From an uncultured Candidatus Saccharibacteria bacterium (lineage in GTDB: Bacteria > Patescibacteriota > Minisyncoccia > UBA6257 > Colwellbacteraceae): DNA of 39,880 bases. Under the pieces are notes generated by a model. The model was not told where the DNA came from. It worked only from the letters and a program-made list of their open reading frames with translations, and did not search any database. Numbering within the stretch: position 1 is the stretch's first letter; every line of letters starts with the position of its first letter. Shown in pieces: positions 4,640-19,185 of this stretch. Made by a program: the position numbers and the translations under genes. Where the stretch lies: the NCBI GenBank assembly GCA_964633405.1, contig CAZWFV010000001.1, positions 1 to 39,880 on the forward strand, in the 5' to 3' direction.

Positions 4640-4645
4640 ACCGCA

Positions 4646-5866: not shown

Positions 5867-5907
5867 TAGAATCGTTGGTCGACGATTCGCAGAATAAAAC
5901 CAAATCA

Positions 5908-6354: not shown

Positions 6355-6364
6355 CAATTACATG

Positions 6365-6396: not shown

Positions 6397-6451
6397 GAAC
6401 TTTACTTTATGGTTCCGCAGGACCTAGTATGGGCTGGAATATGCTATCCAT

Positions 6452-7126
6452 ATGGAAACGATGGACTCGATGAATAATAAAGAGGAGCAGCGGCCCAGGC
6501 GCAGATCCACGACGTTCATTTATGGTGGCATCACGGTTATAGTTGTCGTACTGGTCCTTGCTCTATACATATCAGTCAGTAGATCCAAGGTCTCGGCCGA
6601 TTATATCGATAAGTTTGATGCCGTCGCCGAACTGTATCAGAAGATAAGTACCGACTCCCAATCGGCCGCTGAGCAGCTGGCCAGCAGCACGGTCTCTTTG
6701 TCAGACAAGGAGCGGGTTAAGGACTATAACGGCGCAGCTCAGGTTGTAAGCCAGAGCGTTACAAATATAAGTAATCTGATTGATGAGGTTAACAGCATGA
6801 ATGCCAGAATAGATGATTTCAGTACTACGGCCGAACGAGTTGGAGACGTCAAGATACGTACGGATAGTATCGGGGTAGTGTCATTATGGCGACAAGGGAA
6901 CGCGTATTTCCTTAAGCTGCTGGATTATGAGAACCAGGTGCTTCTGCCGACAGAGCAATATTACAAAGATCTGGCCGCCGGCCGCGAGGCTACGGCGCTG
7001 ACTGTCGTCCAGGATCAGGTCATTTCCCAAAACATCAAGAGCGAGACCGATAATATGTCCAGCTTGGGGCCGGACATCCAGGCGGCCTATTCAAAATTAT
7101 CCGCCGATATAGGTGTCCAACTCTAA
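6452..7126 (+). CDS. Hypothetical single-pass membrane protein with a helical extracytoplasmic region
   Basis: The ORF has an N-terminal TM segment (FIYGGITVIVVVLVLALYISV). I recognise no motif in it. Confidence 0.5.
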   Translation: METMDSMNNKEEQRPRRRSTTFIYGGITVIVVVLVLALYISVSRSKVSADYIDKFDAVAELYQKISTDSQSAAEQLASSTVSLSDKERVKDYNGAAQVVSQSVTNISNLIDEVNSMNARIDDFSTTAERVGDVKIRTDSIGVVSLWRQGNAYFLKLLDYENQVLLPTEQYYKDLAAGREATALTVVQDQVISQNIKSETDNMSSLGPDIQAAYSKLSADIGVQL

Positions 7127-7151: not shown

Positions 7152-7179
7152 TTAGCTTAATGCGAATCTCTGCTATAAT
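7152..7179 (+). promoter_or_regulatory. Sigma-70-type promoter with an extended -10 box, positioned for a leaderless transcript of the giant pilin
   Basis: TTAGCT (7152-7157), 16 nt spacer, TGcTATAAT (7171-7179). The ATG at 7188 lies 8 nt after the -10 box, and no SD site is present. Confidence 0.55.
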
Positions 7180-7187: not shown

Positions 7188-9161
7188 ATGGCATACAGGA
7201 CTAAAAATCCTCCTTCAAGGAGGGGATTCACCCTCATCGAGATGCTCCTCTATATAGCTATCTTTGCTATTACGGCGGGGATGATCACCAGCATCATGGT
7301 TAACGCTCTGCGCGTTCAGAGCGGCGAGAACAGCTCCACCGAGGTAAGTTCTCAGCTTAACCACGTCCTGACAACGGTCCAGCGCCTGGTCCAGCAATCC
7401 AGCGAAGTGGAATACACCTATGAAGGCACAAGCACGTCAACGCCTTGTACACAGTACTGTACCCTGGAATTGCGCATGGTTCCGGATACCACAATAGACC
7501 CTACCTGCATCAGTTCCGATGCAACGGGGGTATATATACAACAGGGCGGCGGTGACACCCACGGTGGCCTATGCAACGGTTCCAAAACCCTACTAACCAA
7601 TTCTCAGATAAAGGTGAATAATCTGATCTTTACCGTGTATAACATCGCTGGCGGAAACAGCACTGTCCAAGTCAATGCTTCTTTCTCGTACAACACCAAT
7701 AATCCGGAATTGGCGGTTACCAAGACCTTGGAATCGGCTATTGGCAGAGTCTCTGCCGCCACCTTCGATTCATCTCTCCTGCCGACCTCGGACAATTCTT
7801 TGAGCATAGGTCAGTCCGGTTCTCCGGCTCTAAGGTGGCAGAATGTTTATCTGTCTGGAGAATTGGGCCTGGGCACCTCGCCCACCGATATTGGTAGCCC
7901 GGTTCCACCACAGGGTACACTTTATTACAACACCGCTTCCTCTTTAGTCAGGCTATACAACGGAACGAGCTGGATGAACCTTGATCCGTTTATTTCAACC
8001 ACCTCCTCGGCATACTATCTAGGCGGGAATCTCGGCATTGGTACCGCAACGCCCGCTACAACTCTTGATGTGAATGGTACGACAACTATACGATTAGGAC
8101 TCATCCTGCCATTTGTTGCCGCCAACTCTTTTCTTGGTACAAATGCTAGCGGGGCGGTAATAGCTACAACTACTTCGGGAGGATCAGGCGGCAACCCCCT
8201 TACGACTGGAGGTACACCTACGATAACCGTGACAACTCCTTCAAGCACAACGTTAAATGCAGCTGGAAGTATACAATCGTGGACGGTTCCAACAGGAGTT
8301 ACCTCGTTAACGGTGAATGTGCAGGGAGCTTCAACACCTAACGCTTATGGTGGAAGTAGTACGGGTACGGTAGCGGTAACGCCTGGAACGACATATTACT
8401 TCTGCGTAGGGACCCAAGCCTCTGGATCGTCTGGCGGATATTGTGGTGGAGGTAGTGCTGCCTCTGGAGGAGGTGGTGGTAGTGGATACTCCGGTATGTT
8501 CACAAGTAATACTCCGAGTCAGGCAGCTGCACTACTGATTGCGGGTGGCGCTGGCGGCAACGGACAAGTAACAGTCTCTCAATATGGCGGTCCGGGCGGT
8601 GGCACGGCTGGTGATAATGGCTCGGGTTGCGGCCCCGGTGTTGGTGGTACCCAATCTGCTGGAGGAGGTGGCGGATTATGTATCACTGCGGGAACAAGCG
8701 GTAGCGCTTTACAAGGAGGCAATGGCAGTGGAGGAAGTACGGATCCAGGAGGAGGCGGAGGCGGCGGGTATTACGGTGGGGGTGGCGGCGGTTCCGGGAC
8801 AAGCAATGACGGTGGCGGTGGCGGTGGATCGGGATACGCGTCATCTACAGTTACGAGTACCACTACTGCGGTCGGTCTGAACAATGGAGCCGGAATAGCA
8901 ACTATCTCGTACGGCCTGCCGATTGGTACGGTTACAGGTGATAATTATGCGGGAAGGGTAAATGTATCTAACTCCTTTACTTCTATAACAATTGCTTTCA
9001 ACAGTCCATCATTCGTGAACGGAGAGTCGTGCAGTGTGGAGCCGAACAACGCAACAAATACTTACTTCGTTTCATATAACGCTACGACCTCTTTCTCAAC
9101 AACCTTCCAGAACGCCCTAACCGCTGGGCAGAGCTTTAATTATTGGTGCCTAGGTTACTAA
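7188..9161 (+). CDS. Giant chimeric type IV pilin: prepilin N-terminus, tail-fibre-like motifs, glycine-rich (Gly_rich/PGII-type) domain, and a C-terminal beta module
   Basis: Prepilin signal MAYRTKNPPSRRG|FTLIEMLLYIAIFAI with E at +5. Fibre-like motifs include LRWQNVYLSG, LYYNTASSLVRLYNGTSW and NLGIGTATPATTLDVNG. Glycine-rich part: SWTVPTGVTSLTVNVQGA...PGTTYYFCVG...poly-G runs. Confidence 0.8.
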   Translation: MAYRTKNPPSRRGFTLIEMLLYIAIFAITAGMITSIMVNALRVQSGENSSTEVSSQLNHVLTTVQRLVQQSSEVEYTYEGTSTSTPCTQYCTLELRMVPDTTIDPTCISSDATGVYIQQGGGDTHGGLCNGSKTLLTNSQIKVNNLIFTVYNIAGGNSTVQVNASFSYNTNNPELAVTKTLESAIGRVSAATFDSSLLPTSDNSLSIGQSGSPALRWQNVYLSGELGLGTSPTDIGSPVPPQGTLYYNTASSLVRLYNGTSWMNLDPFISTTSSAYYLGGNLGIGTATPATTLDVNGTTTIRLGLILPFVAANSFLGTNASGAVIATTTSGGSGGNPLTTGGTPTITVTTPSSTTLNAAGSIQSWTVPTGVTSLTVNVQGASTPNAYGGSSTGTVAVTPGTTYYFCVGTQASGSSGGYCGGGSAASGGGGGSGYSGMFTSNTPSQAAALLIAGGAGGNGQVTVSQYGGPGGGTAGDNGSGCGPGVGGTQSAGGGGGLCITAGTSGSALQGGNGSGGSTDPGGGGGGGYYGGGGGGSGTSNDGGGGGGSGYASSTVTSTTTAVGLNNGAGIATISYGLPIGTVTGDNYAGRVNVSNSFTSITIAFNSPSFVNGESCSVEPNNATNTYFVSYNATTSFSTTFQNALTAGQSFNYWCLGY

Positions 9162-9213: not shown

Positions 9214-9222
9214 TGTTATAAT
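9214..9222 (+). promoter_or_regulatory. Extended -10 promoter element for pilM, leaderless geometry
   Basis: TGtTATAAT at 9214-9222, with the ATG at 9231 lying 8 nt downstream. No SD site and no convincing -35 element. Confidence 0.5.
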
Positions 9223-9230: not shown

Positions 9231-10304
9231 ATGTTCAATCCATTAGGTTCTTGGAGACGCAGAAGTTATTTGGGCGTTGATGTGGGCACCACCTCTATAA
9301 AGATAGTTGAGCTTTCCTCGTCTAATAAACACCCCGTATTGAAAAACTACGGTATTCTGGAGAGTTACGGTCATCTGGAGAGACTAAATAATGCTATTCA
9401 GACCTCGACTCTGAAGATGCTTGACCGCGAGACTGCAGATCTATTGATAATGCTGGTCAAGCAGCTGGATCTTAAAACAGTCGATGCCGTCGCCTCGCTG
9501 CCATCGTTCACCGCCTTCATGGCTCCTCTGGAAATGCCAACTATGTCATCACAGGAAACTGTGCGGGCTATGCAATACCAAGCTAGGCAGTTCGTTCCAT
9601 TGCCTATCTCGGAAGTGGCTCTGGACTGGATCCAGGTTGGTGAGTACACGAACGATAAAGGAAACAGGATGCAGCGCTTTTTCCTTATTTCCGTTCCCAA
9701 TGAACAGATTAGGAAATACCAGCGTATCTTCAAGGCGGCTGGCCTGAATCTGATAGCTCTGGAAGTGGAGGATCTCAGTCTAGCCCGCATATTGACCAGC
9801 GGCGATCCGACCCTCACCTTAGTAATTGACATCGGAGCCCGTTCCACCGCCATCATGGTTGCCAAGAATGGTGTCCTGAAGGGAAGCGGGCAGACTGACT
9901 TTGCCGGCGGTTCGCTGACCCAGGCCGTGTCTGGAGGGTTGAATATCAACATCCGCAGGGCGGAGGAGCTAAAAAAACAGAGAGGGCTATTGGGCAGCGG
10001 AGGGGAATACGAACTTTCCACTTTAATGCTGCCATTCCTGGATGTTATACTAAGTGAGGTGAAAAGGGTGCGGGAAGACTACGAGAAGACGTACAACGAG
10101 AAGGTTGAGCGCATCATAATTTCCGGTGGGGGAGCCAACCTGCTGGGGATAGAGAAGTATATCAGTGACGCATTCAACCTACCTGCCACAAAAGCAGACC
10201 CGTTCTCAAAGATCGTCTACCCTCCCCAGGCCGCTCCGCTAGTTAGCGAGCTTGGACCGCCGTTTTCCGTAGCCCTGGGATTAGGCATCAGGCAGTTTCT
10301 ATAA
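9231..10304 (+). CDS. pilM: Type IV pilus assembly protein PilM (actin-like ATPase fold)
   Basis: N-terminal LGVDVGTTSIKIVEL phosphate-1 motif, later DIGARST and ISGGGANL motifs. It is followed by PilN/O-like genes. Confidence 0.85.
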   Translation: MFNPLGSWRRRSYLGVDVGTTSIKIVELSSSNKHPVLKNYGILESYGHLERLNNAIQTSTLKMLDRETADLLIMLVKQLDLKTVDAVASLPSFTAFMAPLEMPTMSSQETVRAMQYQARQFVPLPISEVALDWIQVGEYTNDKGNRMQRFFLISVPNEQIRKYQRIFKAAGLNLIALEVEDLSLARILTSGDPTLTLVIDIGARSTAIMVAKNGVLKGSGQTDFAGGSLTQAVSGGLNINIRRAEELKKQRGLLGSGGEYELSTLMLPFLDVILSEVKRVREDYEKTYNEKVERIIISGGGANLLGIEKYISDAFNLPATKADPFSKIVYPPQAAPLVSELGPPFSVALGLGIRQFL

Positions 10305-10316
10305 ATACGGGCACAA

Positions 10317-10862
10317 ATGGCATACATAAAGGATACAAACGACCAGTTCCTACAGCACAATCTGCCGATAGGATGGCCTTGGCGCCTGCTTTTATCCATG
10401 GGCATCGTGCTAATAGTTGTCTTATTAGTCTACTTCGGTCTTGCTTTCGGGTACGAAGGTTTCTTGAACAATTCAATCAGTACGCTCAATACCAACCTAA
10501 ATTCGCTTAGCTTGGAGGTATCGCCCACGGACAGAGCCAACTTCGTAAGTTTCTACTCCCAGATTACGAATCTGCAAAACCTATTGGCATCCCACGTCGT
10601 ATCTTCGGGCGTGTTTCCGGTCTTTGAGAATATGACCGACCAGAGCGTTACCTACAGTTCGTTCGGTTTGTCGGTAAAGGATAAGACGGTTACGATCGAC
10701 GGCGTTGCCAAGGATTATAAGACTTTGGCTGATCAGCTGGCGTTATATAAACAGTCGCCGGACGTGAGCGATGTTGTTCTGGAGGGTTCGTCCTTCTCGA
10801 ATAACCAGGTCAGGTTTACGGTCAAACTTACACTAAACGACAATGCGGGCCTCAACCTATAG
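10317..10862 (+). CDS. PilN-like bitopic pilus alignment protein
   Basis: Short cytoplasmic N-terminus, one TM segment, and an extracytoplasmic domain of about 120 aa. It sits directly after pilM. The sequence is divergent, so the call rests on position and topology. Confidence 0.5.
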   Translation: MAYIKDTNDQFLQHNLPIGWPWRLLLSMGIVLIVVLLVYFGLAFGYEGFLNNSISTLNTNLNSLSLEVSPTDRANFVSFYSQITNLQNLLASHVVSSGVFPVFENMTDQSVTYSSFGLSVKDKTVTIDGVAKDYKTLADQLALYKQSPDVSDVVLEGSSFSNNQVRFTVKLTLNDNAGLNL

Positions 10863-11409
10863 ATTGCTTTCAATACTGGGGAGTCTGGTGCTACTGATCA
10901 TAGCGATCGTTAGTTACACGAACCTGGTTGTGCCTGCGTATAACAAGGTCCAGGATCTGCGCAGTGAGCAGCAGGGCATACAGGCGACAACATCTCAGGA
11001 TCAGCAGGCGATTAGCACGGTAAAGAATCTACTTGGACAGTACAACCAGAATTTCTCCCAACTGCACGACAACCTGTCTCAGATATTGCCCGCAGAAGCC
11101 GATGTGCCGGGGATCGTCTACCAGTTGCAAGCTCTGGCGAGCGCAAGGCAGGTGACCATCCAGTCCCTGGGCATACAATATTTGCCGATACAAGCCAAGG
11201 TTACGGACTCGATCACCAGCCCTGTGGGGACGTTGCAGATATCGCTCAATCTAAGCGGCCCGTACGCCTCATTTAAAGCGCTATTGGGCGACATTGAGAC
11301 GAATATCCGCTTGATGGATGTACAATCAATCCAAATAGGAGGCGGTAATCTACCCGGGAAGAATGACTTAAGTTACGCATTGGTCATAGATACTTATTAT
11401 CAGCAATAA
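10843..11409 (+). CDS. PilO-like bitopic pilus alignment protein
   Basis: One TM segment, a coiled-coil segment, then LSQILPAEADVPGIVYQLQALA, a stretch typical of PilO. It overlaps the previous gene by 20 nt. Confidence 0.55.
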   Translation: MRASTYRLLSILGSLVLLIIAIVSYTNLVVPAYNKVQDLRSEQQGIQATTSQDQQAISTVKNLLGQYNQNFSQLHDNLSQILPAEADVPGIVYQLQALASARQVTIQSLGIQYLPIQAKVTDSITSPVGTLQISLNLSGPYASFKALLGDIETNIRLMDVQSIQIGGGNLPGKNDLSYALVIDTYYQQ

Positions 11410-11410
11410 A

Positions 11411-11710
11411 ATGGCTATAGTTGTTGAAAGCGAGAAAAAAAAGAGTCCTACGGTCGCAATAGCGATTGCGATTATTGTGATTGTTATACTGGTTGCTGGT
11501 ACCTACTACCTGTTTTTTAGCCCCGCCCCGGCGATCCAAAACATTATTGTTCCGCGCGACTTACAATCTATTTCCCAGGTGTCTAAGCTCGATGTAAACG
11601 GCGCGGTTCAAAGTCTAACCTCATCCGCAAACTACAACAGTCTTAAGAACACCCTGCCGCCGCAGCAGGTGAATGGTTACGGTCGTTCCGATCCCTTCCA
11701 GCCCTACTAA
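11411..11710 (+). CDS. Small single-pass membrane protein in the PilP position
   Basis: 99 aa with one TM segment and a C-terminal GRSDPFQP motif that recalls the DPF motif of PilP-type proteins. Its stop overlaps the pilB start (TAATG). Confidence 0.4.
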   Translation: MAIVVESEKKKSPTVAIAIAIIVIVILVAGTYYLFFSPAPAIQNIIVPRDLQSISQVSKLDVNGAVQSLTSSANYNSLKNTLPPQQVNGYGRSDPFQPY

Positions 11711-13449
11711 TGGACGACAAGAAATTAATCGAGGCTCTTATAAAGAAATCTCTGCTGCTATCCGATACTGGGCAAAAACTGCTAGCTGAAGCGGCGCAAG
11801 TCAAACGGCCCGTGGAGAACCTTATATATAGTGGCCGCCTTGTCGACGAGGCCAGCGTCGCCAAAGTTAAGAGCGAACTGTTGGGCATACCTTATAAGAC
11901 TGTAGAGTTCGATAAGATACCAGACGATATCCTGAAGCTGATCCCCGAGGAGACGGCCCAGACCTATCGCGTCATACCATTGTCGCGGGACGACAAGATG
12001 TTGGTCGTGGGTATGTTGAACCCCTCGGATGTCAGGGCCCAGGAGGCGCTACGATTCATTGCCAAGCAGAACCGGATGAGCCTCGGCGTATATGTGATCA
12101 CCCCTTCGGACCTGGAGCTGGTGTTGCAACGCTACCGACCGTATCAGTCTGAAATCCAGTCGGCCCTCCAATCGCTGAACATAAAGCCTGGCAGCGGGCT
12201 CAGCGACTTGCAGCGTATAGTACAGATAGAGGAAGGTAAGTCTATATCCGAAGACGCCCCGATTATAAAGATAGTCGCATCGACCCTGGGGTCTGCCGTT
12301 GAGGAGAACTCTTCGGACATACATATCGAACCCCAACGTTCTAGACTGCGCATCCGCTTCAGGACGGACGGCGTGCTTAAAGAGGTGACTTCGTTGCCGC
12401 TTGAGCTTGCCCAACCGGTCATTTCCCGGGTGAAGATATTGGCCAGTCTCAAGATAGACGAGAATCGGATACCGCAGGACGGCAGATTCCGCACGGTCGT
12501 ATTCGGTCGGGACATAGATTTCCGCGTCTCAACCTTCCCGACCCCCGTTGGAGAAAAGGTGGCTATACGCGTTCTCGATCCGACTGTGGGACTGAAGGGG
12601 GTTGATAATCTCGGATTGGTCGGACATAACTCTCAGCTGGTTGACTCCTCCATAAAGCGCCCATACGGGATGATACTTGTTACCGGTCCGACCGGATCGG
12701 GCAAGACGACGACTCTTTATGCCTTGCTGCAGGTCCTGAACACCGAATCGGTTAACATATTAAGCTTGGAGGATCCTGTTGAGTATTTCGTCGACGGTCT
12801 TAACCAGTCACAGGTTAGACCGGATATAGGGTATGATTTCGCCTCCGGGCTGAGACAGATAGTGAGACAGGACCCGGACGTGATCATGGTGGGGGAGATA
12901 CGGGATAGGGAGACGGCTAAGCTGGCCATCGAGGCCGCTCTCACCGGGCAGATCGTCCTTTCTACTCTGCACACTAATAATGCCGCCGGCGTCATACCCA
13001 GGCTTATCGATATGGGAGCAGAGCCATTCCTTCTACCCACAGCGCTGAACCTCATGATCTCCCAACGTCTGGTGCGCCGTCTGTGCGACTCATGTAAGAA
13101 GGAAGAGGAAGCGTCGGCCGATATTCAGGAGATTATAAGAACTGAACTGCGTAAACTTCCCGAGGAGGCCAGAAAAGCAGTTAAGTACGCCGAGCCGTAC
13201 AAGGTCTACCACGCCCCGGGCTGCAAGGTCTGTAAAGGCAAAGGGGCGATAGGACGTATAGCTATATTCGAAGTTATGGCTATGACCAGGGAACTCGAAT
13301 CGATAATATCCTCGGGAGTCGAGGAAGGTAAGCTGATCGACGAGGGCAAACGGCAGGGAATGATCACTATGCGTCAGGATGGGATACTGAAGGCGCTGGA
13401 AGGGACGGTCGCAATAGAGGAAGTTCTCCGGGAGAGCACGGAATCGTGA
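11710..13449 (+). CDS. pilB: Type IV pilus extension ATPase PilB (GspE family)
   Basis: N-terminal T2SSE_N-like domain, Walker A GPTGSGKTTT, Asp/His boxes, and the tetracysteine motif CDSC...CKVCKGKG. Confidence 0.9.
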   Translation: MDDKKLIEALIKKSLLLSDTGQKLLAEAAQVKRPVENLIYSGRLVDEASVAKVKSELLGIPYKTVEFDKIPDDILKLIPEETAQTYRVIPLSRDDKMLVVGMLNPSDVRAQEALRFIAKQNRMSLGVYVITPSDLELVLQRYRPYQSEIQSALQSLNIKPGSGLSDLQRIVQIEEGKSISEDAPIIKIVASTLGSAVEENSSDIHIEPQRSRLRIRFRTDGVLKEVTSLPLELAQPVISRVKILASLKIDENRIPQDGRFRTVVFGRDIDFRVSTFPTPVGEKVAIRVLDPTVGLKGVDNLGLVGHNSQLVDSSIKRPYGMILVTGPTGSGKTTTLYALLQVLNTESVNILSLEDPVEYFVDGLNQSQVRPDIGYDFASGLRQIVRQDPDVIMVGEIRDRETAKLAIEAALTGQIVLSTLHTNNAAGVIPRLIDMGAEPFLLPTALNLMISQRLVRRLCDSCKKEEEASADIQEIIRTELRKLPEEARKAVKYAEPYKVYHAPGCKVCKGKGAIGRIAIFEVMAMTRELESIISSGVEEGKLIDEGKRQGMITMRQDGILKALEGTVAIEEVLRESTES

Positions 13450-13455
13450 TACAAT
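13447..13455 (+). promoter_or_regulatory. Putative internal extended -10 promoter for pilT, leaderless geometry
   Basis: TGaTACAAT at 13447-13455. The TGA is the pilB stop codon. The ATG at 13462 lies 6 nt after the box. Confidence 0.4.
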
Positions 13456-13461
13456 ACGAAT

Positions 13462-14532
13462 ATGGATTACAAACAGAAACTAAACGGCCTATTACTTACT
13501 ACGGCGCGGCAGAATGCCTCGGATTTGCACCTGGCCGTGGGGCGTAAGCCGACTATGAGAGTTGATGGAGTTCTCGTCGGTTTGCAGAAAGAGGACGTTC
13601 TCACCCCCGAAGACACCCAGGGACTGGTCATGACAATGCTTACCGATGAACAGAAACCGAGATTCCTAAAATATGGCGACCTAGACTTCTCCTATACCTT
13701 CGAGGACAAGGCCCGCTTCCGGGTCAACGTCTTCTTCCAAAGGGGATTTATGGCGGCGGCAATGAGACTGATTCCGGCGGAGGTACATACCGTCGAAGAA
13801 TTACATCTCCCGCCGATACTTCATGAGTTCACCAAGATAAACCAGGGTTTCGTCCTGGTGGTGGGGCCGGCCGGTCAAGGAAAATCTACGACCCTGGCCG
13901 CGCTGCTGGACGAGGTTAACCACAAACGTACGGATCACATTATCACCATCGAGGACCCAATCGAATATCTGTTCGTGCAAGACCGTTCCATCGTTTCCCA
14001 ACGCGAGATAATGACCGACAGCCCGTCGTTCCACCGCTCGCTTAGATCCCTCTTAAGGCAGGATCCGGACGTGGTGATGATCGGCGAGATGCGTGACCCG
14101 GAAACTATGTCCACCGCAATGACCGCAGCCGAGACTGGTCACCTGGTATTCTCGACCCTGCATACCAATTCGGCTGCCCAGACAATAGACCGCATCATCG
14201 ACTCTTTCCCTGCAGAGCAGCAGGGGCAGGTTATGTCCCAACTCGCCGCCACTCTCGTCGGTATAGTGTCGCAGCGGCTGATCCCCCGTATAGATGGCGG
14301 GCGTACGCCGGCTTGCGAAGTGATGTTCACCAACTCGGCTATCCGTAACCTGATACGTGAGCGTAAGGTCTATCAGATTGATCTGGTCATAGAAACCAGC
14401 CTGCAGGAGGGGATGACCAGCCTGAACCGCTCACTGGCCGAACTTATCAAACGCAAGGAGATATCACTGGAGAACGGCGAGATGTATTCGCTCAATCCAT
14501 CGGAGCTGAGGATACTGCTTGAGCGCATCTGA
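13462..14532 (+). CDS. pilT: Type IV pilus retraction ATPase PilT
   Basis: Walker A GPAGQGKSTT and the PilT signature AIRNLIRE. The size (356 aa) fits the family. Confidence 0.9.
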   Translation: MDYKQKLNGLLLTTARQNASDLHLAVGRKPTMRVDGVLVGLQKEDVLTPEDTQGLVMTMLTDEQKPRFLKYGDLDFSYTFEDKARFRVNVFFQRGFMAAAMRLIPAEVHTVEELHLPPILHEFTKINQGFVLVVGPAGQGKSTTLAALLDEVNHKRTDHIITIEDPIEYLFVQDRSIVSQREIMTDSPSFHRSLRSLLRQDPDVVMIGEMRDPETMSTAMTAAETGHLVFSTLHTNSAAQTIDRIIDSFPAEQQGQVMSQLAATLVGIVSQRLIPRIDGGRTPACEVMFTNSAIRNLIRERKVYQIDLVIETSLQEGMTSLNRSLAELIKRKEISLENGEMYSLNPSELRILLERI

Positions 14533-14574
14533 TCACTTTCCCGGCTTGGTAAATACGGGCAAATAGATTTACAA

Positions 14575-15783
14575 ATGAAGCTGAACTATAAGGCTCGAAG
14601 CAAAGAAGGGGAGCTGCAAGTCGGCTCCATAGAAGCGGCCTCAAGGGAGGCGGCGGTGAACATACTTTCGGGTCACGACCTCTTTATCCTTTCACTGGAG
14701 GAGGAGAAGAGCAGTCGCTGGTATGATCAAATCCTCGCTTTCCTGAACAGAGTGAAGGCCAAGGATATGATGGTCTTTACCCGGCAGTTTTCCACGCTGT
14801 TAGCTGCACAGGTGCCGTTGGGCGAGGCCTTGCGCACCCTGGAGAAGCAGACCACTAACACAGTCTTAAAAGAAACCATATTCGAGGTTATTTCGGATAT
14901 AGATGCGGGTCTATCTCTCTCCCAATCTCTCGAGAAATACGGCGATGTCTTTTCGTCCTTCTACGTCAATATGATACGTTCGGCCGAGGTCACGGGCCGC
15001 ATGGAACAGACCGTCGACTTTCTGGCAGACTATATAGAGAAGCAGGTCGCCATAACTTCTAAGATATACAATGCGTTGATTTACCCGGTGATTATGATTG
15101 TGCTTTTCATAATCGTCGCGGCGATAATGGCCATTGTCGTTTTGCCGCAGATTCAGCCGATATTCAATCAGGCTGGGGTGGCAACCCCGCTGTTTACGCA
15201 GATAATACTTGATACGGGCAACATACTGGCCAATTGGTGGTACATCGTCGTAATCGCGGTGGTCGCCCTGGCTGCTTTCATAGGCGATTACATGAGGACG
15301 GAAGAAGGTAGGGCAGTGACTGACGAGATATTGCTGCGCACGCCGGTAGTTAGCAGTTTGCTTAAGCGGTTATACGTCTCTCGCTTCGCCGAATCGGTGA
15401 GCGTGCTTACCCGCGGTGGCATTCCTATAGCCCAAAGCCTGGAAATTGCCGGGCAGACTATAGGCAGTTTGATCTATCGCGACGCCCTTCACCAGACCGC
15501 CGAGGATATAAGGCGCGGTGAGCTATTATCCCAGTCACTGGTCAAGAACGTGGAGTATTTCCCCCCGCTGGTATCGCAAATGGTCGCTGTCGGCGAGTCA
15601 ACAGGACGCCTGGATGACCTATTGGAGAAGGTAGCTACGTTTTACACACGTGAGGTTGATGATGCCGTAGCCAATTTAGTAGAATTAATACAGCCGGTAT
15701 TAATGGTTGTGATTGGCCTGTTGGTCGCTGCGCTATTCGCTTCCATCCTTATACCGATATATAACCTATTGCACACGTTTTAA
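14575..15783 (+). CDS. pilC: Type IV pilus platform protein PilC (GspF family)
   Basis: Two T2SSF repeats and three TM segments, 402 aa. Confidence 0.9.
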   Translation: MKLNYKARSKEGELQVGSIEAASREAAVNILSGHDLFILSLEEEKSSRWYDQILAFLNRVKAKDMMVFTRQFSTLLAAQVPLGEALRTLEKQTTNTVLKETIFEVISDIDAGLSLSQSLEKYGDVFSSFYVNMIRSAEVTGRMEQTVDFLADYIEKQVAITSKIYNALIYPVIMIVLFIIVAAIMAIVVLPQIQPIFNQAGVATPLFTQIILDTGNILANWWYIVVIAVVALAAFIGDYMRTEEGRAVTDEILLRTPVVSSLLKRLYVSRFAESVSVLTRGGIPIAQSLEIAGQTIGSLIYRDALHQTAEDIRRGELLSQSLVKNVEYFPPLVSQMVAVGESTGRLDDLLEKVATFYTREVDDAVANLVELIQPVLMVVIGLLVAALFASILIPIYNLLHTF

Positions 15784-15796: not shown

Positions 15797-16309
15797 ATGA
15801 AATCACATAGAGGTTTTACCCTTATCGAAATGTTGATCGTTATTGCGATCATCGCCATATTGGCAGGTATAGTTCTGTCTAGCGTGAGTAGTTTCCAGGC
15901 TAGGGCTAGAGACACCCTAAGAATAGGCGACCTTAGAAACATTCAGAACTACCTGGAATTGTTCTTCAATAAGTGTGGATATTACCCGGGCAACGTCGAT
16001 GCTAGTGGTAATTGCACTCTAGGCAATACTCCTACTACATGGCAGGACTTGCAGACTTTGATGACCAAGACTGCGGCTGTAACCACGCAATTCCCAGCGG
16101 ACCCCATACCTTCGCACAGTTTCTGTTATCAGTCCACCAATAACGGTCTTGGTTATGTTGTCGGTGCCATATTGGAACAGAGCAACAGTGTCATAAATAA
16201 CAGTGTCACTACAAACGGGTCAATGAATATCCCCGGCAGTGACGGCGCGGGGGGCGTCTGTCAGTGTGGACCTGGTAGCGCTAACAACAGTTATTGCGTA
16301 AGTTCCTAG
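15797..16309 (+). CDS. Major type IV pilin (PilA/ComGC-like)
   Basis: MKSHRG|FTLIEMLIVIAIIAILAGI prepilin motif followed by ARDTLRIGDLRNIQNYLELF. The C-terminal half is Cys-rich. Confidence 0.85.
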   Translation: MKSHRGFTLIEMLIVIAIIAILAGIVLSSVSSFQARARDTLRIGDLRNIQNYLELFFNKCGYYPGNVDASGNCTLGNTPTTWQDLQTLMTKTAAVTTQFPADPIPSHSFCYQSTNNGLGYVVGAILEQSNSVINNSVTTNGSMNIPGSDGAGGVCQCGPGSANNSYCVSS

Positions 16310-16330
16310 GCCGATAATAGAAAGTATCCA

Positions 16331-17206
16331 TTGACGACTGTATTCTACATACTGCTATTTGTTTTTGGTCTGGCTGTAGGCAGCTTCTTAAACGTAGTTT
16401 CCCTCCGCTATGAAGATGGTAAGGGTATATTTGCCAACATTTACGGCAGGTCGCACTGTCCGCATTGCGGCAACACCCTGCGTTGGTACGAACTGCTGCC
16501 GGTCATGTCTTTTATCATACAGGGCGGTCGTTGCCGTTCGTGCCATCAGCGCATCTCCTGGCAATATCCGATAGTGGAATTGCTGTCAGGCTTGATTTTC
16601 GTCCTCGTACCATATCGCTTGATAATCTTTTACGGCCGTTTCTATCAACCGTACCTACCGATATTCATATGGGTGATAGCTTTTCTGACCCTACTTTTGG
16701 TGTCGATCATAGATTTCCGGCAGCAGATTATCCCGGACAGTCTTAGTATATTCATGGGTCTGTTAGGTGTAGCTATGTTCTTCATTCACGTGAGCTTGGG
16801 GGACTTCGGCTTGGCCAACGGAATCATCGGCGGCAGCTTTCTGGGCAGTTATTCTCTGCTTCTCTTCTACGGGAATTCCCTGCTTATAAACACTCTTCTA
16901 GGTTTGGCTTTCGGTTTGGTCTTCATTGGGCTAATTTATGCCGTTTCATTGGGCAGAGGGATAGGTTTGGGAGACGTCAAACTTGCCGCCGCCGCCGGAT
17001 TGCTCATGGGCTGGCCCGATATAGCTCTCGCGCTCATCGTCGCTTTCATTATCGGGGCTATAATCGGTGGCGGGCTGATGCTCTTCCGCGGCAGGTCCAG
17101 ACGGGACGCCGTCCCGTTCGGCCCGTTTATAGTTGTAGGTATTACCTTAGTCTTCTTTTTGGGGTACGATATTCTTAATGCGTACTTCCACCTGTTTAAG
17201 ATCTAA
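16331..17206 (+). CDS. pilD: Prepilin peptidase / N-methyltransferase PilD (A24 family)
   Basis: TTG start. Zinc-binding CPHCG...CRSCHQ motif and the catalytic Asp motifs IIPDS and GLGDVKL. Confidence 0.9.
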   Translation: MTTVFYILLFVFGLAVGSFLNVVSLRYEDGKGIFANIYGRSHCPHCGNTLRWYELLPVMSFIIQGGRCRSCHQRISWQYPIVELLSGLIFVLVPYRLIIFYGRFYQPYLPIFIWVIAFLTLLLVSIIDFRQQIIPDSLSIFMGLLGVAMFFIHVSLGDFGLANGIIGGSFLGSYSLLLFYGNSLLINTLLGLAFGLVFIGLIYAVSLGRGIGLGDVKLAAAAGLLMGWPDIALALIVAFIIGAIIGGGLMLFRGRSRRDAVPFGPFIVVGITLVFFLGYDILNAYFHLFKI

Positions 17207-17792
17207 ATTGCAAGTTTCGGATTGTTCTGCTGCGGGATTTACCCTGATTGAGATGCTGGTTACGCTGGGAATCCTGGCTATATTGTCGTCGATAATGATC
17301 GGGTATGCCTCCGAAAGCGGACGGCAGACATTCCTGCTGGTTACCAGAGAGAGTGTTGTCCAGCTGTTGAATAGAGCTAAAGCCGATGCTCTAGCTCAGT
17401 ACTCTACGACCGTGTCGGGAGGCAATTCCTCTAGTTTGAGTACCTGCGGTTTTGGCGTGCACGTCGACCGCGCCGCCTATACGCTGACGATATTCGAGAG
17501 CGAATCCACAGACTGCGACCATAGGAGCAATTACAGTTTCTCTTCGAGCACGGATATCCTTCTGACCGGATCGCTCGATTCATATGTGATTGACTCGGGT
17601 AGACTCCAATTTATACAGGATCCCGATGGCGATCTGACCGACGTTGTCTTTACCTCGCCCAACTCCCAGACATACATCAACGGCGCTACCTCAAACACCG
17701 TGACCCAGGCAGGCGTGGATCTGCAGATGACCAACGCCGCCTCAGAGAACATCAAGGTTACTATAAACAATGCCGGCCAGATCAGTTGGTAA
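17178..17792 (+). CDS. Minor pilin / pseudopilin
   Basis: AAG|FTLIEMLVTLGILAILSS prepilin motif. The ATG at 17178 overlaps pilD by 29 nt; an in-frame TTG at 17208 is an alternative start. Confidence 0.75.
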   Translation: MRTSTCLRSKLQVSDCSAAGFTLIEMLVTLGILAILSSIMIGYASESGRQTFLLVTRESVVQLLNRAKADALAQYSTTVSGGNSSSLSTCGFGVHVDRAAYTLTIFESESTDCDHRSNYSFSSSTDILLTGSLDSYVIDSGRLQFIQDPDGDLTDVVFTSPNSQTYINGATSNTVTQAGVDLQMTNAASENIKVTINNAGQISW

Positions 17793-18285
17793 CAACAGGG
17801 GACAGATGCTCATCGAGGCCATGGTGGCCATGGGGGTGATATCCATAAGTCTGCTGGGCGTATTCGCCTTGCTGTCGCAGTCCTTGGAATTGAGTAGGAC
17901 CACGTCAAATCAATATGTGGGGACTTACCTGGCGGCGGAGGGGATAGAGGTAGTTAAGAATATCGTGGATACGAATACCTATAAGGGCGGGGCAGCATGG
18001 AATGCAGGGCTGATTCAAAGCGGTCAGAGCAGTTACACCTTCACCGTCCAGTATGACAGCACCGCTCCAGAGTCATTCTCGGTGGACACGCCTTTATTGT
18101 TCGATCCGAGCACCGGCACGTACAACTATCAGACCGGCAACTACACCACCTTCACCAGGGCCGTAACCGTGACTAGTCTGCTGTCCGGCAATGAACTGCA
18201 GGTCGACTCCGTCGTCGGTTGGGTCAACAGCGGCGGCATAAAGGACTCGGTCAAACTGGAAGATGATTTATATAACTGGCGTTAA
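17770..18285 (+). CDS. Minor pilin (PilV-like)
   Basis: NNRG|QMLIEAMVAMGVISI, a degenerate prepilin motif with E at +5. It overlaps the previous gene by 23 nt. Confidence 0.65.
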   Translation: MPARSVGNNRGQMLIEAMVAMGVISISLLGVFALLSQSLELSRTTSNQYVGTYLAAEGIEVVKNIVDTNTYKGGAAWNAGLIQSGQSSYTFTVQYDSTAPESFSVDTPLLFDPSTGTYNYQTGNYTTFTRAVTVTSLLSGNELQVDSVVGWVNSGGIKDSVKLEDDLYNWR

Positions 18286-18286
18286 A

Positions 18287-18826
18287 ATGGATCACGGACC
18301 CGGTAAGGCAAATAGCAGCAGTGGATTCACGCTCATAGAGCTGATGGTCGCAATGGCCGTCTTCCTAATTCTTGTTTCTCTATCAACCTCCGTGTTCATC
18401 CAGACCCTTCGTACGCAGCGCACTATCGACAGCGTAACGGCTGATAATGAGAGCGCCTCCGAAGCGTTAGAACAAATGGCCAGGGATATCCGTACGGGTT
18501 ACAATTTTACGGCTCCCGACGTCAACAGCCAGGGGATCGCCCATGACCTAGTATTCAGCAGTGCACAGGAGAATGCGACCGTCGGCTTCAAGCTGTCCAA
18601 TCAGTCCGTCGCTCGTTGCATAGATACCTGTCAGACGGATTCGGATTACAAGCCGGTAACGCCGCCCGGGGTTAATATAAGCGACCTGAGCTTTATACCG
18701 GTAAATCTTACCTCCGGCGTTCCGCGGATAACGATCCTTATGACCGTAAGCACCAGTACGTCGGGCGGGACCAGTTCCAATATAAATACCTATCTTGAGA
18801 CGACCGTAAGTGCCAGAAATTTCTAA
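18287..18826 (+). CDS. Minor pilin (PilW-like)
   Basis: SSSG|FTLIELMVAMAVFLILVS prepilin motif. The ATG at 18287 follows the upstream stop by 1 nt; the ORF track starts at 18263. Confidence 0.7.
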   Translation: MDHGPGKANSSSGFTLIELMVAMAVFLILVSLSTSVFIQTLRTQRTIDSVTADNESASEALEQMARDIRTGYNFTAPDVNSQGIAHDLVFSSAQENATVGFKLSNQSVARCIDTCQTDSDYKPVTPPGVNISDLSFIPVNLTSGVPRITILMTVSTSTSGGTSSNINTYLETTVSARNF

Positions 18827-18828
18827 TC

Positions 18829-19185
18829 ATGTTAACCAGACGCAACAAGGGACAAGTCATACTGCTCACGGCGATAATAGTAGCGGGCGTGGTCATGGCC
18901 GCGACTTCGCTAGCCGGGCTACTTACCCTATATGAGCTGCGGCAGGTCACGGACGTCAAGAACTCCAGCGCGGCAATCTTTGCTGCTGACGCCGGAACGG
19001 AATGTCTTTCATATCAATGGACCAAGGATTCAAGCCTCGACTGCAGCAACGGCACTTTAACCAATGGCGCCAGATTCACAACCACCAGCACACCCTCCGG
19101 TACCGGCTTCATATCGATCGGCACCTCCGGACGTTCCAATCGCGCCTTCGAGATAGACTTCAGCCAATTTGCCACATCAACATGA
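18829..19185 (+). CDS. PilX-like minor pilus component (hydrophobic N-terminus, no E+5)
   Basis: MLTRRNKGQVILLTAIIVAGVVMAA N-terminus. It is the last gene of the minor-pilin block. Its stop overlaps the ligA start (ATGA). Confidence 0.5.
   Translation: MLTRRNKGQVILLTAIIVAGVVMAATSLAGLLTLYELRQVTDVKNSSAAIFAADAGTECLSYQWTKDSSLDCSNGTLTNGARFTTTSTPSGTGFISIGTSGRSNRAFEIDFSQFATST

What the first reader, a model, noticed from the sequence alone, without database searches (positions are those of the whole stretch)
7188..9161. 657-aa chimeric pilin fusing a prepilin stem to tail-fibre-like and poly-glycine (ALK/LTK-type Gly_rich) modules
**Seen in the sequence**
- A canonical class III signal, RRG|FTLIEMLLYIAIFAI, with E at +5.
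- A Cys-containing pilin-like head of about 180 aa.
- At about aa 200-300: SLSIGQSGSPALRWQNVYLSG, GTLYYNTASSLVRLYNGTSWMNL and YYLGGNLGIGTATPATTLDVNG. I recognise these motifs from phage tail-fibre and tailspike-like proteins.
- At about aa 355-575: SWTVPTGVTSLTVNVQGA, VAVTPGTTYYFCVG, then repeated GGGGG(S)GY runs and LLIAGGAGG. This is the layout of the glycine-rich domain family, whose poly-Gly type II helices are also found in ALK/LTK ectodomains and in many fibre proteins.
- A final N/S/T-rich module of about 80 aa.
- The mature protein is about four times the size of the major pilin at 15797.
- The gene has its own extended -10 promoter with leaderless geometry and sits between the exporter module and pilM.

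**Inference**
- This is a pilus-displayed receptor-binding adhesin built by grafting a virus-like fibre module onto a pilin stem.
- In an episymbiotic ultra-small bacterium it would be a prime candidate for host recognition or attachment.
Basis: partly seen in the sequence, partly recalled or inferred. Interest (0 to 1): 0.8.

Follow-up and report, generated by a model that had tools for sequence, protein, structure and literature searches.

The report
Pilin fused to phage-fibre-like knob
In an ultra-small Patescibacteria bacterium, one pilus-subunit gene ends in a glycine-rich knob that is otherwise found on fibre proteins, some encoded among phage head genes, so it is probably a swappable attachment hook, though pilins with grafted modules are already a known design.

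Summary
ORF 7188-9161 encodes a 657-aa protein with a real prepilin signal (RRG|FTLIE, E5). It lies directly upstream of pilMNO-pilBTC-pilA-pilD and four minor pilin genes.

It has four parts:
- a pilin domain (aa 14-190);
- a low-confidence stalk (aa 191-346);
- an ALK/LTK-type TNF-like/poly-Gly domain (aa 347-575), supported by profile and predicted fold but below the Pfam cutoff;
- a rare two-Cys beta-sandwich (aa 576-657).

aa 8-298 are 67% identical to the pilin of a close relative (PilB 85% identical). That pilin ends instead in a Phage_phiTE_241_C module. aa 330-657 are 52-56% identical to non-pilin fibre proteins. Two of five such proteins examined lie in phage head/portal gene blocks.

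The gene is therefore a mosaic "modular pilin" carrying a phage-type distal cassette. Pilus display and adhesion are inferred, not shown.

Modular pilins are already described, and pilin-PF12810 fusions are already catalogued (Raynaud 2021). Large accessory-domain minor pilins in Saccharibacteria already have genetic support as host-binding factors. What is new is the kinship with phage-block fibres and the cassette replacement between near relatives. Assembly chimerism cannot be excluded without reads, but it is unlikely.

The parts
7171..7179 (+). Extended -10-like element TGCTATAAT, 8 nt upstream of the ATG. No Shine-Dalgarno sequence, so the geometry is leaderless or near-leaderless.
   Evidence: Read. 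The same element and spacing occur before pilM (9214-9222). The count in the window is not above chance (2 against 1.39 expected). Activity was not tested.
7188..9161 (+). Whole ORF: a 657-aa modular type IV (minor) pilin.
7188..7226 (+). Class III leader peptide (aa 1-13, MAYRTKNPPSRRG). The predicted PilD cleavage site follows G13.
   Evidence: Sequence. N_methyl and TIGR02532 score above their cutoffs. A PilD gene lies at 16331.
7227..7757 (+). Pilin module (aa 14-190): alpha-1 helix with E5, then a beta-sheet head with 4 Cys.
   Evidence: AF2 predicts a helix at 16-70 and strands at 71-186, mostly pLDDT 84-97 with a dip to 74 at aa 121-130. The best-probability PDB matches are pilins TTHA1219 and S. 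sanguinis PilB, but with weak E-values. aa 8-298 are 67% identical to P0003.
7758..8225 (+). Stalk (aa 191-346). It holds the family motifs SAATFDS..LP..DNS.S.G....RW.N.Y, YYNT...R.YNG..W, GNLGIGTATPATTLDVNG and NSFLGTNASGAVIATTT. The mosaic junction lies at about aa 280-300.
   Evidence: - Conserved across the pilin family (A3).
- Monomer model is poor for aa 190-230 (pLDDT about 50) and moderate for aa 240-300 (71-85).
- Similarity to pilin P0003 ends at aa 298.
- Similarity to non-pilin fibres starts at aa 280-296.
- PHROG hits of the query here are to families of unknown function.
8226..8912 (+). ALK/LTK-type TNF-like/poly-glycine domain (aa 347-575).
   Evidence: - AF2 pLDDT is mostly above 95.
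- The top 20 Foldseek PDB hits are all ALK/LTK GRD or TG domains, E 1e-6 to 1e-3.
- BFVD best hit E 1e-16, TM 0.53/0.60.
- Profile against ALK/LTK chains E 1.7e-6.
- phrog_7388 E 4e-12.
- Pfam on the single sequence is sub-threshold.
8913..9158 (+). Terminal beta-sandwich (aa 576-657), N/S/T-rich, with an invariant Cys pair (C615, C654). Candidate specificity tip.
   Evidence: - AF2 predicts strands with pLDDT 76-91.
- Only 17 of 1.84 billion cluster representatives carry it. In all 12 full-length or nearly full-length hits it is the C-terminal domain.
- None of the 13 other carriers whose sequences were read is a pilin.
- 41-64% identical among relatives, and both Cys are invariant (A4).
9231..15783 (+). 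Type IV pilus machinery immediately downstream: pilM, pilN, pilO, pilB, pilT, pilC.
   Evidence: Pfam PilM_2, PilN, PilO, T2SSE (twice) and T2SSF.
15797..17206 (+). Major pilin (170 aa) and prepilin peptidase PilD.
   Evidence: N_methyl; A24_N_bact plus Peptidase_A24.
17178..19185 (+). Four small minor-pilin genes (204, 171, 187 and 118 aa). The last lacks E5.
   Evidence: N_methyl, with weak GspH-, PilV- and GspJ-like hits. Sequences. The 118-aa ORF is masked by an over-long LigA ORF call.

Best explanation
The gene encodes a mosaic, modular type IV minor pilin of a Patescibacterium.

**Proposed mechanism**
1. PilD removes the 13-residue leader after G13.
2. The hydrophobic alpha-1 helix, with E5, is taken up by the PilMNO/PilB/PilC machinery encoded next to it. 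It is built into the pilus, probably at or near the tip together with the four small minor pilins.
3. The rest of the protein projects outward. It consists of a roughly 155-residue fibre-like stalk, an ALK/LTK-type TNF-like/poly-glycine domain, and a small disulfide-bonded beta-sandwich.
4. This distal cassette is the ligand-binding end and lets the cell grab a partner cell or surface. PilT-driven retraction could then pull the cells together.

**Origin**
The cassette was acquired by recombination at a fibre motif (GxxGIGTxxPxxxLxVxG) that pilins of this family share with non-pilin fibres, some of which are encoded in phage structural blocks. Different lineages therefore mount different phage-type tips on one pilin scaffold.

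**Shown and inferred**
- Shown: the domain identities, the mosaic relationships, the genomic context, and the different distal module in the orthologue of a close relative.
- Inferred: cleavage, incorporation into pili, position in the filament, binding activity and the target.
For: **Pilin identity**
- Pilin signal and domain.
- PilD and a full type IV pilus gene set lie in the same co-directional gene cluster.

**Mosaic structure**
- aa 8-298 are 67% identical to pilin P0003 of a genome whose PilB and PilM are 85% and 86% identical. P0003 ends in Phage_phiTE_241_C and also sits upstream of pilMNOBT.
- aa 330-657 are 56% and 52% identical to the C-termini of non-pilin P0010 and P0011.
- P0010 follows SU10_portal, a major head protein (phrog_1357, E 2e-26) and SU10_adaptor.
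- P0019 lies in a co-directional block with a weak head-protein hit and a gene matching minor-tail PHROGs.

**Glycine-rich domain**
- Fold and profile match ALK/LTK and many phage virion proteins.

**Family-level evidence**
- 6 or fewer of the 43 family members scanned hit any one tail-fibre PHROG, and several such PHROGs are hit.
- Distal modules of 63 members fall into 17 BLAST clusters. The query's module is a singleton.
- The closest relatives (8 loci) all have pilM downstream.

**Codon usage**
- GC3 drops from 0.56 in the N-part (genome 0.59) to 0.36-0.40 in the linker and Gly-rich domain.

**Precedents**
- Modular pilins as adhesins (PMC8179133).
- TM7x PilX2, a large accessory-domain minor pilin needed for efficient host binding (PMC11623550).
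Against: - There are no expression, processing or localisation data.
- This exact fusion is seen once only. P0001 is on one contig. None of the 80 GTDB family loci carries this cassette. None of the 13 other terminal-domain proteins whose sequences were read is a pilin.
- The stalk is poorly predicted as a monomer, so its geometry is unknown.
- E5 is present, so the protein need not be the top-most subunit. Tip or shaft position is open.
- The ALK_LTK_GRD Pfam score is below the cutoff.
- The ligand of any bacterial or phage domain of this type is unknown to me.
- The cassette's non-pilin relatives start with Sec-signal-like N-termini, which is odd for virion fibres. 'Phage receptor-binding protein' for them is context-based only.
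Confidence: 0.6

Rival explanations
1. Assembly chimera. The contig wrongly joins a pilin gene to a fibre gene of a phage or another genome at the shared fibre motif, so no such protein exists.
For: - The fusion is unique to this contig.
- GC3 breaks sharply near aa 300.
- The junction lies in a motif shared by both protein families, which is the kind of place where assemblers can cross over.
- No reads are available.
Against: - The cassette is flanked on both sides by chromosomal DNA on a 39.9-kb contig. The stop codon is followed by a 69-nt spacer and pilM, which is 86% identical to the relative's pilM. A chimera would need two crossovers.
- The frame is open for 1,974 nt.
- No DNA repeat in the window touches the gene.
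- The same GC3 dip is seen for P0010 relative to its own neighbours, so it is a property of the cassette.
- Pilin plus fibre plus Gly-rich architectures recur independently. P0009 is an 8-member cluster from several sources, and P0012, P0014, P0015, P0016 and P0020 show the same design.
Confidence: 0.07
2. It is a real protein but not a subunit of the retractile pilus. The prepilin-type N-terminus would serve only as a membrane anchor or short pseudopilus stem that displays a surface fibre on the cell body.
For: - The weak N-terminal hits are to T2SS pseudopilins and ComG minor pilins.
- Most distant family members are not next to pilus machinery genes.
- The non-pilin relatives of the cassette use a plain hydrophobic N-terminus, which suggests that cell-surface display is sufficient for them.
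Against: - The position directly upstream of pilMNOBT is conserved in all the closest relatives.
- E5 and a full-length alpha-1 helix are kept.
- Only one pilus system is visible in the window.
Confidence: 0.12
3. The cassette binds the Patescibacterium's own surface, the same receptor as the related phage fibre. The protein would then mediate kin aggregation, or mask or decoy a phage receptor, rather than recognise a host cell.
For: - The nearest cassette relative sits in a phage block whose GC (0.504) and GC3 (0.60) match this genome (0.502 and 0.59). This is compatible with a phage of a related Patescibacterium.
- The terminal domains are 62% identical.
Against: - The phage's host is not established.
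- 56% identity does not imply the same ligand.
- The scaffold family carries many different tips at a conserved pilus locus, which fits adhesion in general.
- No defence genes were identified among the window genes that were scanned.
Confidence: 0.1
4. The distal module has a non-adhesive role, such as DNA capture for uptake or a purely structural spacer.
For: - Type IV pili of Patescibacteria have been proposed to take up DNA (discussion in PMC11623550).
- The function of bacterial domains of this type is untested.
Against: - The exposed part is almost uncharged. K+R+D+E is 1% of the Gly-rich domain and 5% of the terminal domain, which is unfavourable for DNA binding.
- The relatives are fibre-end domains.
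Confidence: 0.05

Closest known systems
Modular type IV pilins: Streptococcus sanguinis PilB (vWA module) and PilC (lectin module); concept and catalogue in Raynaud et al. 2021, PMC8179133
   Same: - An N-terminal class III signal and small pilin module with a bulky functional module grafted at the C-terminus.
- Predicted to be tip-exposed and adhesive.
- The paper's Dataset S1 already lists IPR012902-PF12810 (2 proteins), IPR012902 with three PF12810 copies (1 protein), and IPR012902-IPR030392 (29 proteins).
   Different: - The module here is a three-part phage-type fibre end (stalk, Gly-rich domain, beta-sandwich) joined by a roughly 155-residue stalk rather than a short loop.
- The cassette is shared at 52-56% identity with proteins encoded in phage blocks.
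- The orthologue in a close relative carries a different distal module.
- No experimental data exist for this protein.
Nanosynbacter lyticus TM7x minor pilins PilX1 (beta-jelly-roll) and PilX2 (beta-propeller), Grossman et al., PMC11623550
   Same: - Patescibacterial minor pilins with large C-terminal accessory domains, proposed as tip adhesins.
- Loss of PilX2 lowers host binding.
   Different: - Different accessory folds.
- No phage-related cassette is described there.
- Different class of Patescibacteria. The relatives here carry Colwellbacteria, Harrisonbacteria, Wolfebacteria and Jorgensenbacteria labels, plus generic 'uncultured Saccharibacteria' labels.
ALK/LTK extracellular TNF-like/glycine-rich (TG/GRD) domain, Pfam PF12810; PDB 7mzy, 7nx1, 7n00, 7lrz
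   Same: - Same predicted fold: the top 20 PDB hits, probability 1.0.
- Profile-level sequence match, E 1.7e-6.
- Same order of sequence motifs.
   Different: - TM-scores are only 0.3-0.42.
- The Pfam score of the protein alone is below the cutoff.
- A prokaryotic pilin context, with no kinase and no ALKAL-type ligand known.
Phage proteins with a glycine-rich domain: cyanophage and Caulobacter-phage 'virion structural protein' or 'glycine-rich domain-containing protein' models in BFVD; PHROGs 7388 and 1589
   Same: - Best structural matches overall: E down to 1e-16, TM 0.53/0.60.
- phrog_7388 E 4e-12.
   Different: - Those are virion or unannotated phage proteins without a pilin stem.
- Their function is not experimentally defined as far as I could find. 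A search for PF12810 gave one unrelated paper.
CofB and TcpB, trimeric tip minor pilins of type IVb pili (as summarised in PMC8179133)
   Same: - Pilin module plus beta-repeat plus beta-sandwich.
- They form a homotrimer at the pilus tip. This shows how a three-fold fibre-like end could sit on a pilus.
   Different: - No sequence or fold match was found here.
- Trimerisation of the present stalk is untested.
- This is a type IVa-like machinery with PilMNO and PilT.
PilY1/PilC tip adhesins
   Same: An exchangeable effector module presented at the pilus tip next to the core minor pilins (PMC8179133 discussion).
   Different: PilY1 is not a pilin and is defined by a C-terminal beta-propeller. No such domain is present here.
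T-even phage gp38 adhesins with a polyglycine-II sandwich (from my own recollection, not tested here)
   Same: A monomeric Gly-rich receptor-binding knob at the end of a fibre.
   Different: Not among the top 50 PDB fold matches. A different Gly-rich architecture. An analogy only.

Membership tests
Type IV pilin (class III signal peptide; Pfam PF07963, TIGR02532) | Short basic leader ending in Gly, then a roughly 20-residue hydrophobic stretch with Glu at +5 | tested here: met
   RRG|FTLIEMLLYIAIFAITAGMI. N_methyl 29.4 bits against 21.2. TIGR02532 20.8 against 16.3.
Type IV pilin (class III signal peptide; Pfam PF07963, TIGR02532) | Long N-terminal alpha-helix packed on an antiparallel beta-sheet ('lollipop' fold) | tested here: met
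   AF2 predicts a helix at 16-70 and strands at 71-186, mostly pLDDT 84-97 with a dip to 74 at aa 121-130. Foldseek matches to pilins have high probability (0.99, 0.87) but weak E-values (0.08-0.15).
Type IV pilin (class III signal peptide; Pfam PF07963, TIGR02532) | Prepilin peptidase and assembly machinery encoded in the genome or locus | tested here: met
   PilD at 16331 and PilM, N, O, B, T and C at 9231-15783.
Type IV pilin (class III signal peptide; Pfam PF07963, TIGR02532) | Cleavage and N-methylation by PilD, and incorporation into filaments | not testable with these tools
   Needs proteomics of sheared pili or a processing assay.
Modular pilin (sensu Raynaud et al. 2021) | A pilin module followed by at least one extra domain that is not specific to pilus biology | tested here: met
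   An ALK/LTK-type domain and a terminal beta-sandwich follow the pilin module. The definition is in PMC8179133.
Modular pilin (sensu Raynaud et al. 2021) | The extra module has a direct role in a pilus-mediated function such as adhesion | not testable with these tools
   Inference only.
ALK_LTK_GRD (Pfam PF12810) | Score at or above the Pfam gathering threshold | tested here: not met
   19.1 bits against 24.5, aa 383-555. Most homologues found with E of about 1e-8 or better carry PF12810 in the precomputed annotation.
ALK_LTK_GRD (Pfam PF12810) | Profile-level sequence homology to solved ALK/LTK GRD chains | tested here: met
   The A2 profile against PDB sequences finds 8 ALK/LTK sequences at E 1.7e-6 to 5.5e-5.
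ALK_LTK_GRD (Pfam PF12810) | TNF-like beta-sandwich combined with a poly-glycine helix array (TG fold) | tested here: met
   AF2 pLDDT is above 95 over the domain. The top 20 Foldseek PDB hits are all ALK/LTK, probability 1.0, E 1e-6 to 1e-3, but TM is only 0.3-0.42. The poly-Gly helices were not inspected individually.
Phage tail fibre or receptor-binding protein | Homology of the distal part to proteins encoded in phage structural modules | tested here: met
   - 56% identity over 328 aa to P0010, which lies after the portal, major head and adaptor genes.
- P0019 lies in a second phage-like block.
- 78 BFVD matches at E<=1e-3.
- Other relatives (P0025, P0038) are in cellular contexts.
   - tblastn against 50,697 phage records gave no match.
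- The query's PHROG hits (8309, 9563) are to families of unknown function.
- Family members carry PF26696 PTL_trimer and tail-fibre PHROGs, mostly in their own distal parts.
Phage tail fibre or receptor-binding protein | Trimeric fibre assembly | not testable with these tools
   No multimer prediction is available. The monomer model of the stalk has low confidence.
PilY1/PilC tip adhesin | C-terminal PilY1-type beta-propeller (IPR008707) | tested here: not met
   No such Pfam or NCBIfam hit. The fold of the C-terminal part is ALK/LTK-type plus a beta-sandwich.

The most novel reading that the evidence does not exclude
Patescibacteria and their phages draw on one shared pool of receptor-binding cassettes. 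These cassettes would be exchanged by recombination at a conserved fibre motif, so that a pilus tip is in effect a phage tail-fibre end mounted on a pilin. In that case a lineage could re-target its pilus by cassette swapping, as phages re-target their fibres. Pilus and phage might even compete for, or cooperate on, the same surface receptor. The stalk may trimerise, so that three pilin subunits present a three-fold fibre at the tip.
Probability: 0.25. Interest if true: 0.8.

Novelty: new variant of a known kind. Interest (0 to 1): 0.58.

Why it matters
How ultra-small episymbiotic bacteria choose and hold their partner cells is largely unknown. Only one pilus adhesin candidate, TM7x PilX2, has genetic support. 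This locus offers three things:
- a concrete, testable adhesin candidate with a well-predicted soluble distal part (aa 347-657);
- a family of at least 100 related pilins whose distal ends differ between near relatives;
- a sequence link to fibres encoded among phage head genes.

If the link is functional, host range of episymbionts and of their phages would be governed by the same exchangeable modules. Specificity could then be predicted, and perhaps re-engineered, from cassette identity. It would also give the widespread but uncharacterised prokaryotic and phage version of the ALK/LTK glycine-rich domain its first functional setting.

Tried and rejected
**Searches that found nothing**
- Single-sequence search against PDB sequences gave only a weak geopilin N-terminal hit and Gly-linker noise.
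- tblastn of aa 330-657 and of aa 189-335 against GenBank phages gave no match. The low-complexity filter may have hidden the first.
- Pattern scans for the cassette or the terminal domain in IMG/VR, GTDB representative genomes and JGI metagenome contigs confirmed no relatives. The cassette is therefore rare, or the patterns were too strict.
- The third word-indexed homologue search, with aa 562-657, returned nothing. The exhaustive HMMER search then found 17 representatives.
- Exact look-up of the protein's own contig was not on record, so the organism name and sample were not recovered.

**Tests that were uninformative or negative**
- Foldseek of the N-terminal model gave no hit at E<=1e-3 and no tail-fibre match for the stalk.
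- The consensus promoter scan does not report the extended -10 element because there is no -35 match. TGnTATAAT is not enriched in the window.
- I considered a diversity-generating retroelement or a prophage in the window. The genes scanned are housekeeping or pilus genes, and nothing of that kind was seen.
- A repeat-mediated misassembly signal was not found.
- The cyanophage Pam3 fibre match is marginal (E 0.03, TM 0.22-0.32) and was not pursued.
Full report

Yes. ORF 7188-9161 on the + strand is uninterrupted and begins at the first start codon after a stop.
- The N-terminus MAYRTKNPPSRRG|FTLIEMLLYIAIFAI has a basic 13-residue leader, Gly at -1, Phe at +1 and Glu at +5.
- It scores above the curated cutoffs of Pfam N_methyl (29.4 against 21.2 bits) and TIGR02532 (20.8 against 16.3).
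- aa 347-575 are 32% Gly with five runs of at least five Gly. aa 576-657 are 40% N+S+T. The mature protein is 3.9 times the mature major pilin.
- TGCTATAAT lies 8 nt upstream of the ATG with no Shine-Dalgarno sequence. The same element and spacing precede pilM. No canonical GGAGG-type Shine-Dalgarno motif is evident upstream of any of the 29 gene starts I listed. The leaderless-looking geometry is therefore a habit of this genome and does not mark this gene out. Two occurrences of the 9-mer are not above chance.

**2. Context**

The window is chromosomal DNA, with tRNA synthetases, GyrB, NusG, LigA, GatA/B and DnaE.
- Upstream of the gene lie HlyD, ABC and MacB/FtsX exporter genes, a DUF5666 protein and a small membrane protein.
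- Immediately downstream lie pilM, pilN, pilO, pilB, pilT, pilC, a 170-aa major pilin, pilD and three minor pilins.
- A fourth small pilin-like ORF (18829-19185, 118 aa, G|QVILLT, no E5) is hidden by an over-long LigA ORF call. The real LigA start is the ATG at 19182. A canonical set of four small minor pilins is therefore present, and the 657-aa protein is an additional pilin.
- The nearest relatives are all from Patescibacteria metagenome-assembled genomes.

**3. Anatomy**

An AlphaFold2 model of aa 1-335, built with 43 family sequences, gives:
- a 55-residue alpha-1 helix followed by a beta-sheet (aa 16-186, mostly pLDDT 84-97 with a dip to 74 at aa 121-130);
- a poorly defined stretch (aa 190-230, pLDDT about 50);
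- short strands of moderate confidence (aa 240-300).

The only structural neighbours of high probability are pilins (T. thermophilus TTHA1219 and S. sanguinis PilB), with weak E-values.

A model of aa 300-657, built with 49 sequences, has mean pLDDT 87 and pTM 0.81. It has a disordered linker to about aa 345, a domain with pLDDT above 95 to about aa 575, and a terminal beta-sandwich with pLDDT 76-91.

- **Glycine-rich domain.** The 20 best PDB matches are all ALK or LTK glycine-rich/TNF-like domains (E 1e-6 to 1e-3, probability 1.0, TM 0.3-0.42). A profile of the family matches ALK/LTK chain sequences at E 1.7e-6. Among predicted viral structures, 78 match at E<=1e-3, the best at E 1e-16 with TM 0.53/0.60. 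Many are cyanophage or Caulobacter-phage virion or glycine-rich proteins.
- **Terminal domain.** It is rare. An exhaustive HMMER pass over 1.84 billion cluster representatives finds 17 proteins. In all 12 full-length or nearly full-length hits it is the C-terminal domain. Both Cys are invariant in the 11 aligned sequences. None of the 13 other carriers whose sequences were read is a pilin.

**4. The gene is a mosaic**

- aa 8-298 are 67% identical to pilin P0003. P0003's genome is a close relative, with PilB 85% and PilM 86% identical.
- P0003 and its kin (P0002, P0004, P0005, P0007) are 386-443 aa. Most are annotated with, and all cluster with, a Phage_phiTE_241_C module of about 100 residues at the C-terminus.
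- In three P0003 loci the pilin is followed by a 1,674-aa Laminin_G_3/DUF2341 protein and then pilMNO-pilBT. In the P0005 locus it is followed by a 1,415-aa protein of the same kind, with no pilus genes in the 8 kb downstream.
- aa 330-657 of the query are 56% and 52% identical to the C-termini of P0010 and P0011, which are not pilins.
- Similarity to the pilin family stops at aa 298. Similarity to the non-pilin family starts at aa 280-296. The junction therefore falls in or just after GNLGIGTATPATTLDVNG, a motif that both families possess (sequences). The following NSFLGTNASGAVIATTT element is also found in the non-pilin fibres, for example P0155 NSFLATDGSGNVIATTT.
- Third-position GC falls from 0.56 in the pilin part (genome 0.59) to 0.36-0.40 in the linker and Gly-rich domain, even with Gly or G/S/T/A codons excluded. 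The P0010 gene shows a similar dip relative to its neighbours (0.47 against 0.60).

**5. Where the cassette's relatives live**

- P0010 lies three genes after a major head protein (phrog_1357, E 2e-26), and after SU10-type portal and adaptor genes. Its start overlaps the preceding gene.
- P0019 lies inside a long co-directional block of unknown genes with a weak head-protein hit and a gene matching minor-tail-protein PHROGs.
- P0025 and P0038 lie among sugar-metabolism and housekeeping genes.

The cassette therefore occurs on fibres in both phage-like and cellular settings. The P0010 contig has the same GC and GC3 as this window, which is compatible with a phage of a related Patescibacterium.

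One feature is unexplained. All the non-pilin relatives begin with a Sec-signal-like hydrophobic segment, which is unusual for virion proteins.

**6. The scaffold family**

A scan of GTDB species representatives found 101 relatives of the pilin stem. Almost all are in Patescibacteria, with Colwellbacteria, Harrisonbacteria, Wolfebacteria, Jorgensenbacteria and Brennerbacteria among the named lineages.
- ORFs range from 233 to 1,184 aa, with the invariant SAATFD motif at residue 160-220.
- Of 103 family proteins, 63 have a distal module of more than 60 residues. These fall into 17 BLAST clusters, and the query's module is a singleton.
- No family ORF in the 80 loci matches a profile of the query's cassette.
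- Scanned individually against PHROGs, up to 6 of the 43 members hit any one family annotated as tail fibre, tail assembly or virion structural protein. Several such families are hit, with E down to 1e-18 for tail-fibre families and 1e-36 for tail fibre assembly.
- Only the closest relatives (8 of 64 loci with enough downstream sequence) sit directly upstream of pilMNO(BT).

The scaffold is therefore a pilin that repeatedly carries phage-type fibre ends. Between near relatives the end is replaced wholesale.

**7. Mechanism proposed**

- Shown: pilin identity, the mosaic structure, the fold of the distal domains, and linkage to a complete pilus system that includes PilD and PilT.
- Inferred: cleavage after G13; insertion of alpha-1 into the filament; presentation of the stalk, Gly-rich domain and beta-sandwich away from the filament; ligand binding by the distal cassette; and retraction-driven approach to the bound cell.
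- Position in the filament is open. E5 is retained, so the protein need not be the apical subunit. The 155-residue stalk could allow incorporation along the shaft, a possibility Raynaud et al. allow for flexible linkers.
- A trimeric tip, as in CofB and TcpB, is conceivable because homologues carry a domain named PTL_trimer. It could not be tested.

**8. Rivals**

- Assembly chimera. I consider this unlikely (about 0.07). It would need two crossovers. The 3' flank continues into a conserved pilM. No repeats touch the gene. The GC3 dip travels with the cassette. Analogous pilin-fibre-Gly-rich proteins recur in independent assemblies. Only reads can settle it.
- Other rivals are a membrane-anchored surface fibre that is not in the pilus, self-binding or phage-decoy functions, and non-adhesive roles. 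They are listed with their evidence in the Rival explanations section.

**9. Relation to what is known**

- Modular pilins are an established class. Raynaud et al. 2021 describe more than 1,200 proteins in 264 architectures, many of them in candidate phyla, and predict that they are tip-exposed. Their Dataset S1 already lists pilin-PF12810 fusions and 29 pilin-IPR030392 fusions.
- In Saccharibacteria, large accessory-domain minor pilins are adhesin candidates, and deleting pilX2 reduces host binding.
- I found no paper linking Patescibacteria or CPR pilins to phage tail fibres, and none on the function of PF12810 in prokaryotes.
- The protein itself is a new member of the modular-pilin class. 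The cassette shared with fibres in phage blocks, the junction at a shared motif, and the replacement of the tip between genomes with 85% identical PilB together amount to a new variant of that theme.

**10. Verdict**

The functional part is plausible but untested. Interest is moderate to high (0.58) rather than 0.8. The design principle and the adhesin idea are already in the literature, and this exact fusion rests on a single contig.

Noticed in passing
window 18829-19185 (+): A 118-aa ORF with a pilin-like N-terminus lacking Glu5 (MLTRRNKG|QVILLTAIIVAGVV) follows the three minor pilins. It is masked by an over-long LigA ORF (19002). The real LigA start is the ATG at 19182, which overlaps this ORF's stop. 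It is probably the fourth core minor pilin, in the GspK/PilX position.
   Followed up: partly
window 9214-9222, and gene starts throughout the window: pilM has the same TGnTATAAT element 8 nt before its ATG as the target gene. No canonical GGAGG-type Shine-Dalgarno motif is evident upstream of any of the 29 gene starts inspected, and several have TAnAAT-like hexamers 6-10 nt upstream. This suggests widespread leaderless or Shine-Dalgarno-independent initiation in this genome.
   Followed up: partly
L001 11206-16239; L006 3477-7724: In close relatives a giant (1,415-1,677 aa) Laminin_G_3/DUF2341 repeat protein with a signal-anchor N-terminus follows the orthologous pilin. In the P0003 loci it sits between the pilin and pilM. 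It is absent from this window, so the region downstream of this pilin is a variable hot spot for surface proteins.
   Followed up: partly
window 8087-8912; L005 8001-9892: The linker and Gly-rich cassette has GC3 of 0.36-0.40 against 0.59 for the genome. The related P0010 gene shows a similar dip (0.47) against its phage neighbours (0.60). The atypical codon usage travels with the cassette.
   Followed up: yes
L005 8001-9892 (P0010); L007 10001-11899 (P0019); P0011, P0013, P0017, P0153-P0164: All non-pilin carriers of the cassette start with a Sec-signal-like hydrophobic N-terminus, including the two encoded inside phage structural blocks. This is unexpected for virion fibres and remains unexplained.
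   Followed up: no
L036, L040, L041, L043, L051 and about 35 other loci: Many family members are short (233-300 aa). They end soon after the SAATFD..LP..D...G....W motif and are not next to pilus machinery genes within 6 kb. They look like the bare scaffold without a distal cassette. Their role is unknown.
   Followed up: no
window 2091-7126 (+): A HlyD / ABC / MacB-FtsX exporter, a DUF5666 protein (5875) and a 224-aa single-pass membrane protein with no family match (6452) lie in the same orientation directly upstream of the pilin. Whether they relate to the pilus is not known.
   Followed up: no
window 24361-25226: Two tRNA-Met(CAT) genes on opposite strands flank a region of about 700 nt. 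The 1-kb bin 24001-25000, which covers most of that region, has the lowest GC in the window (0.44).
   Followed up: no
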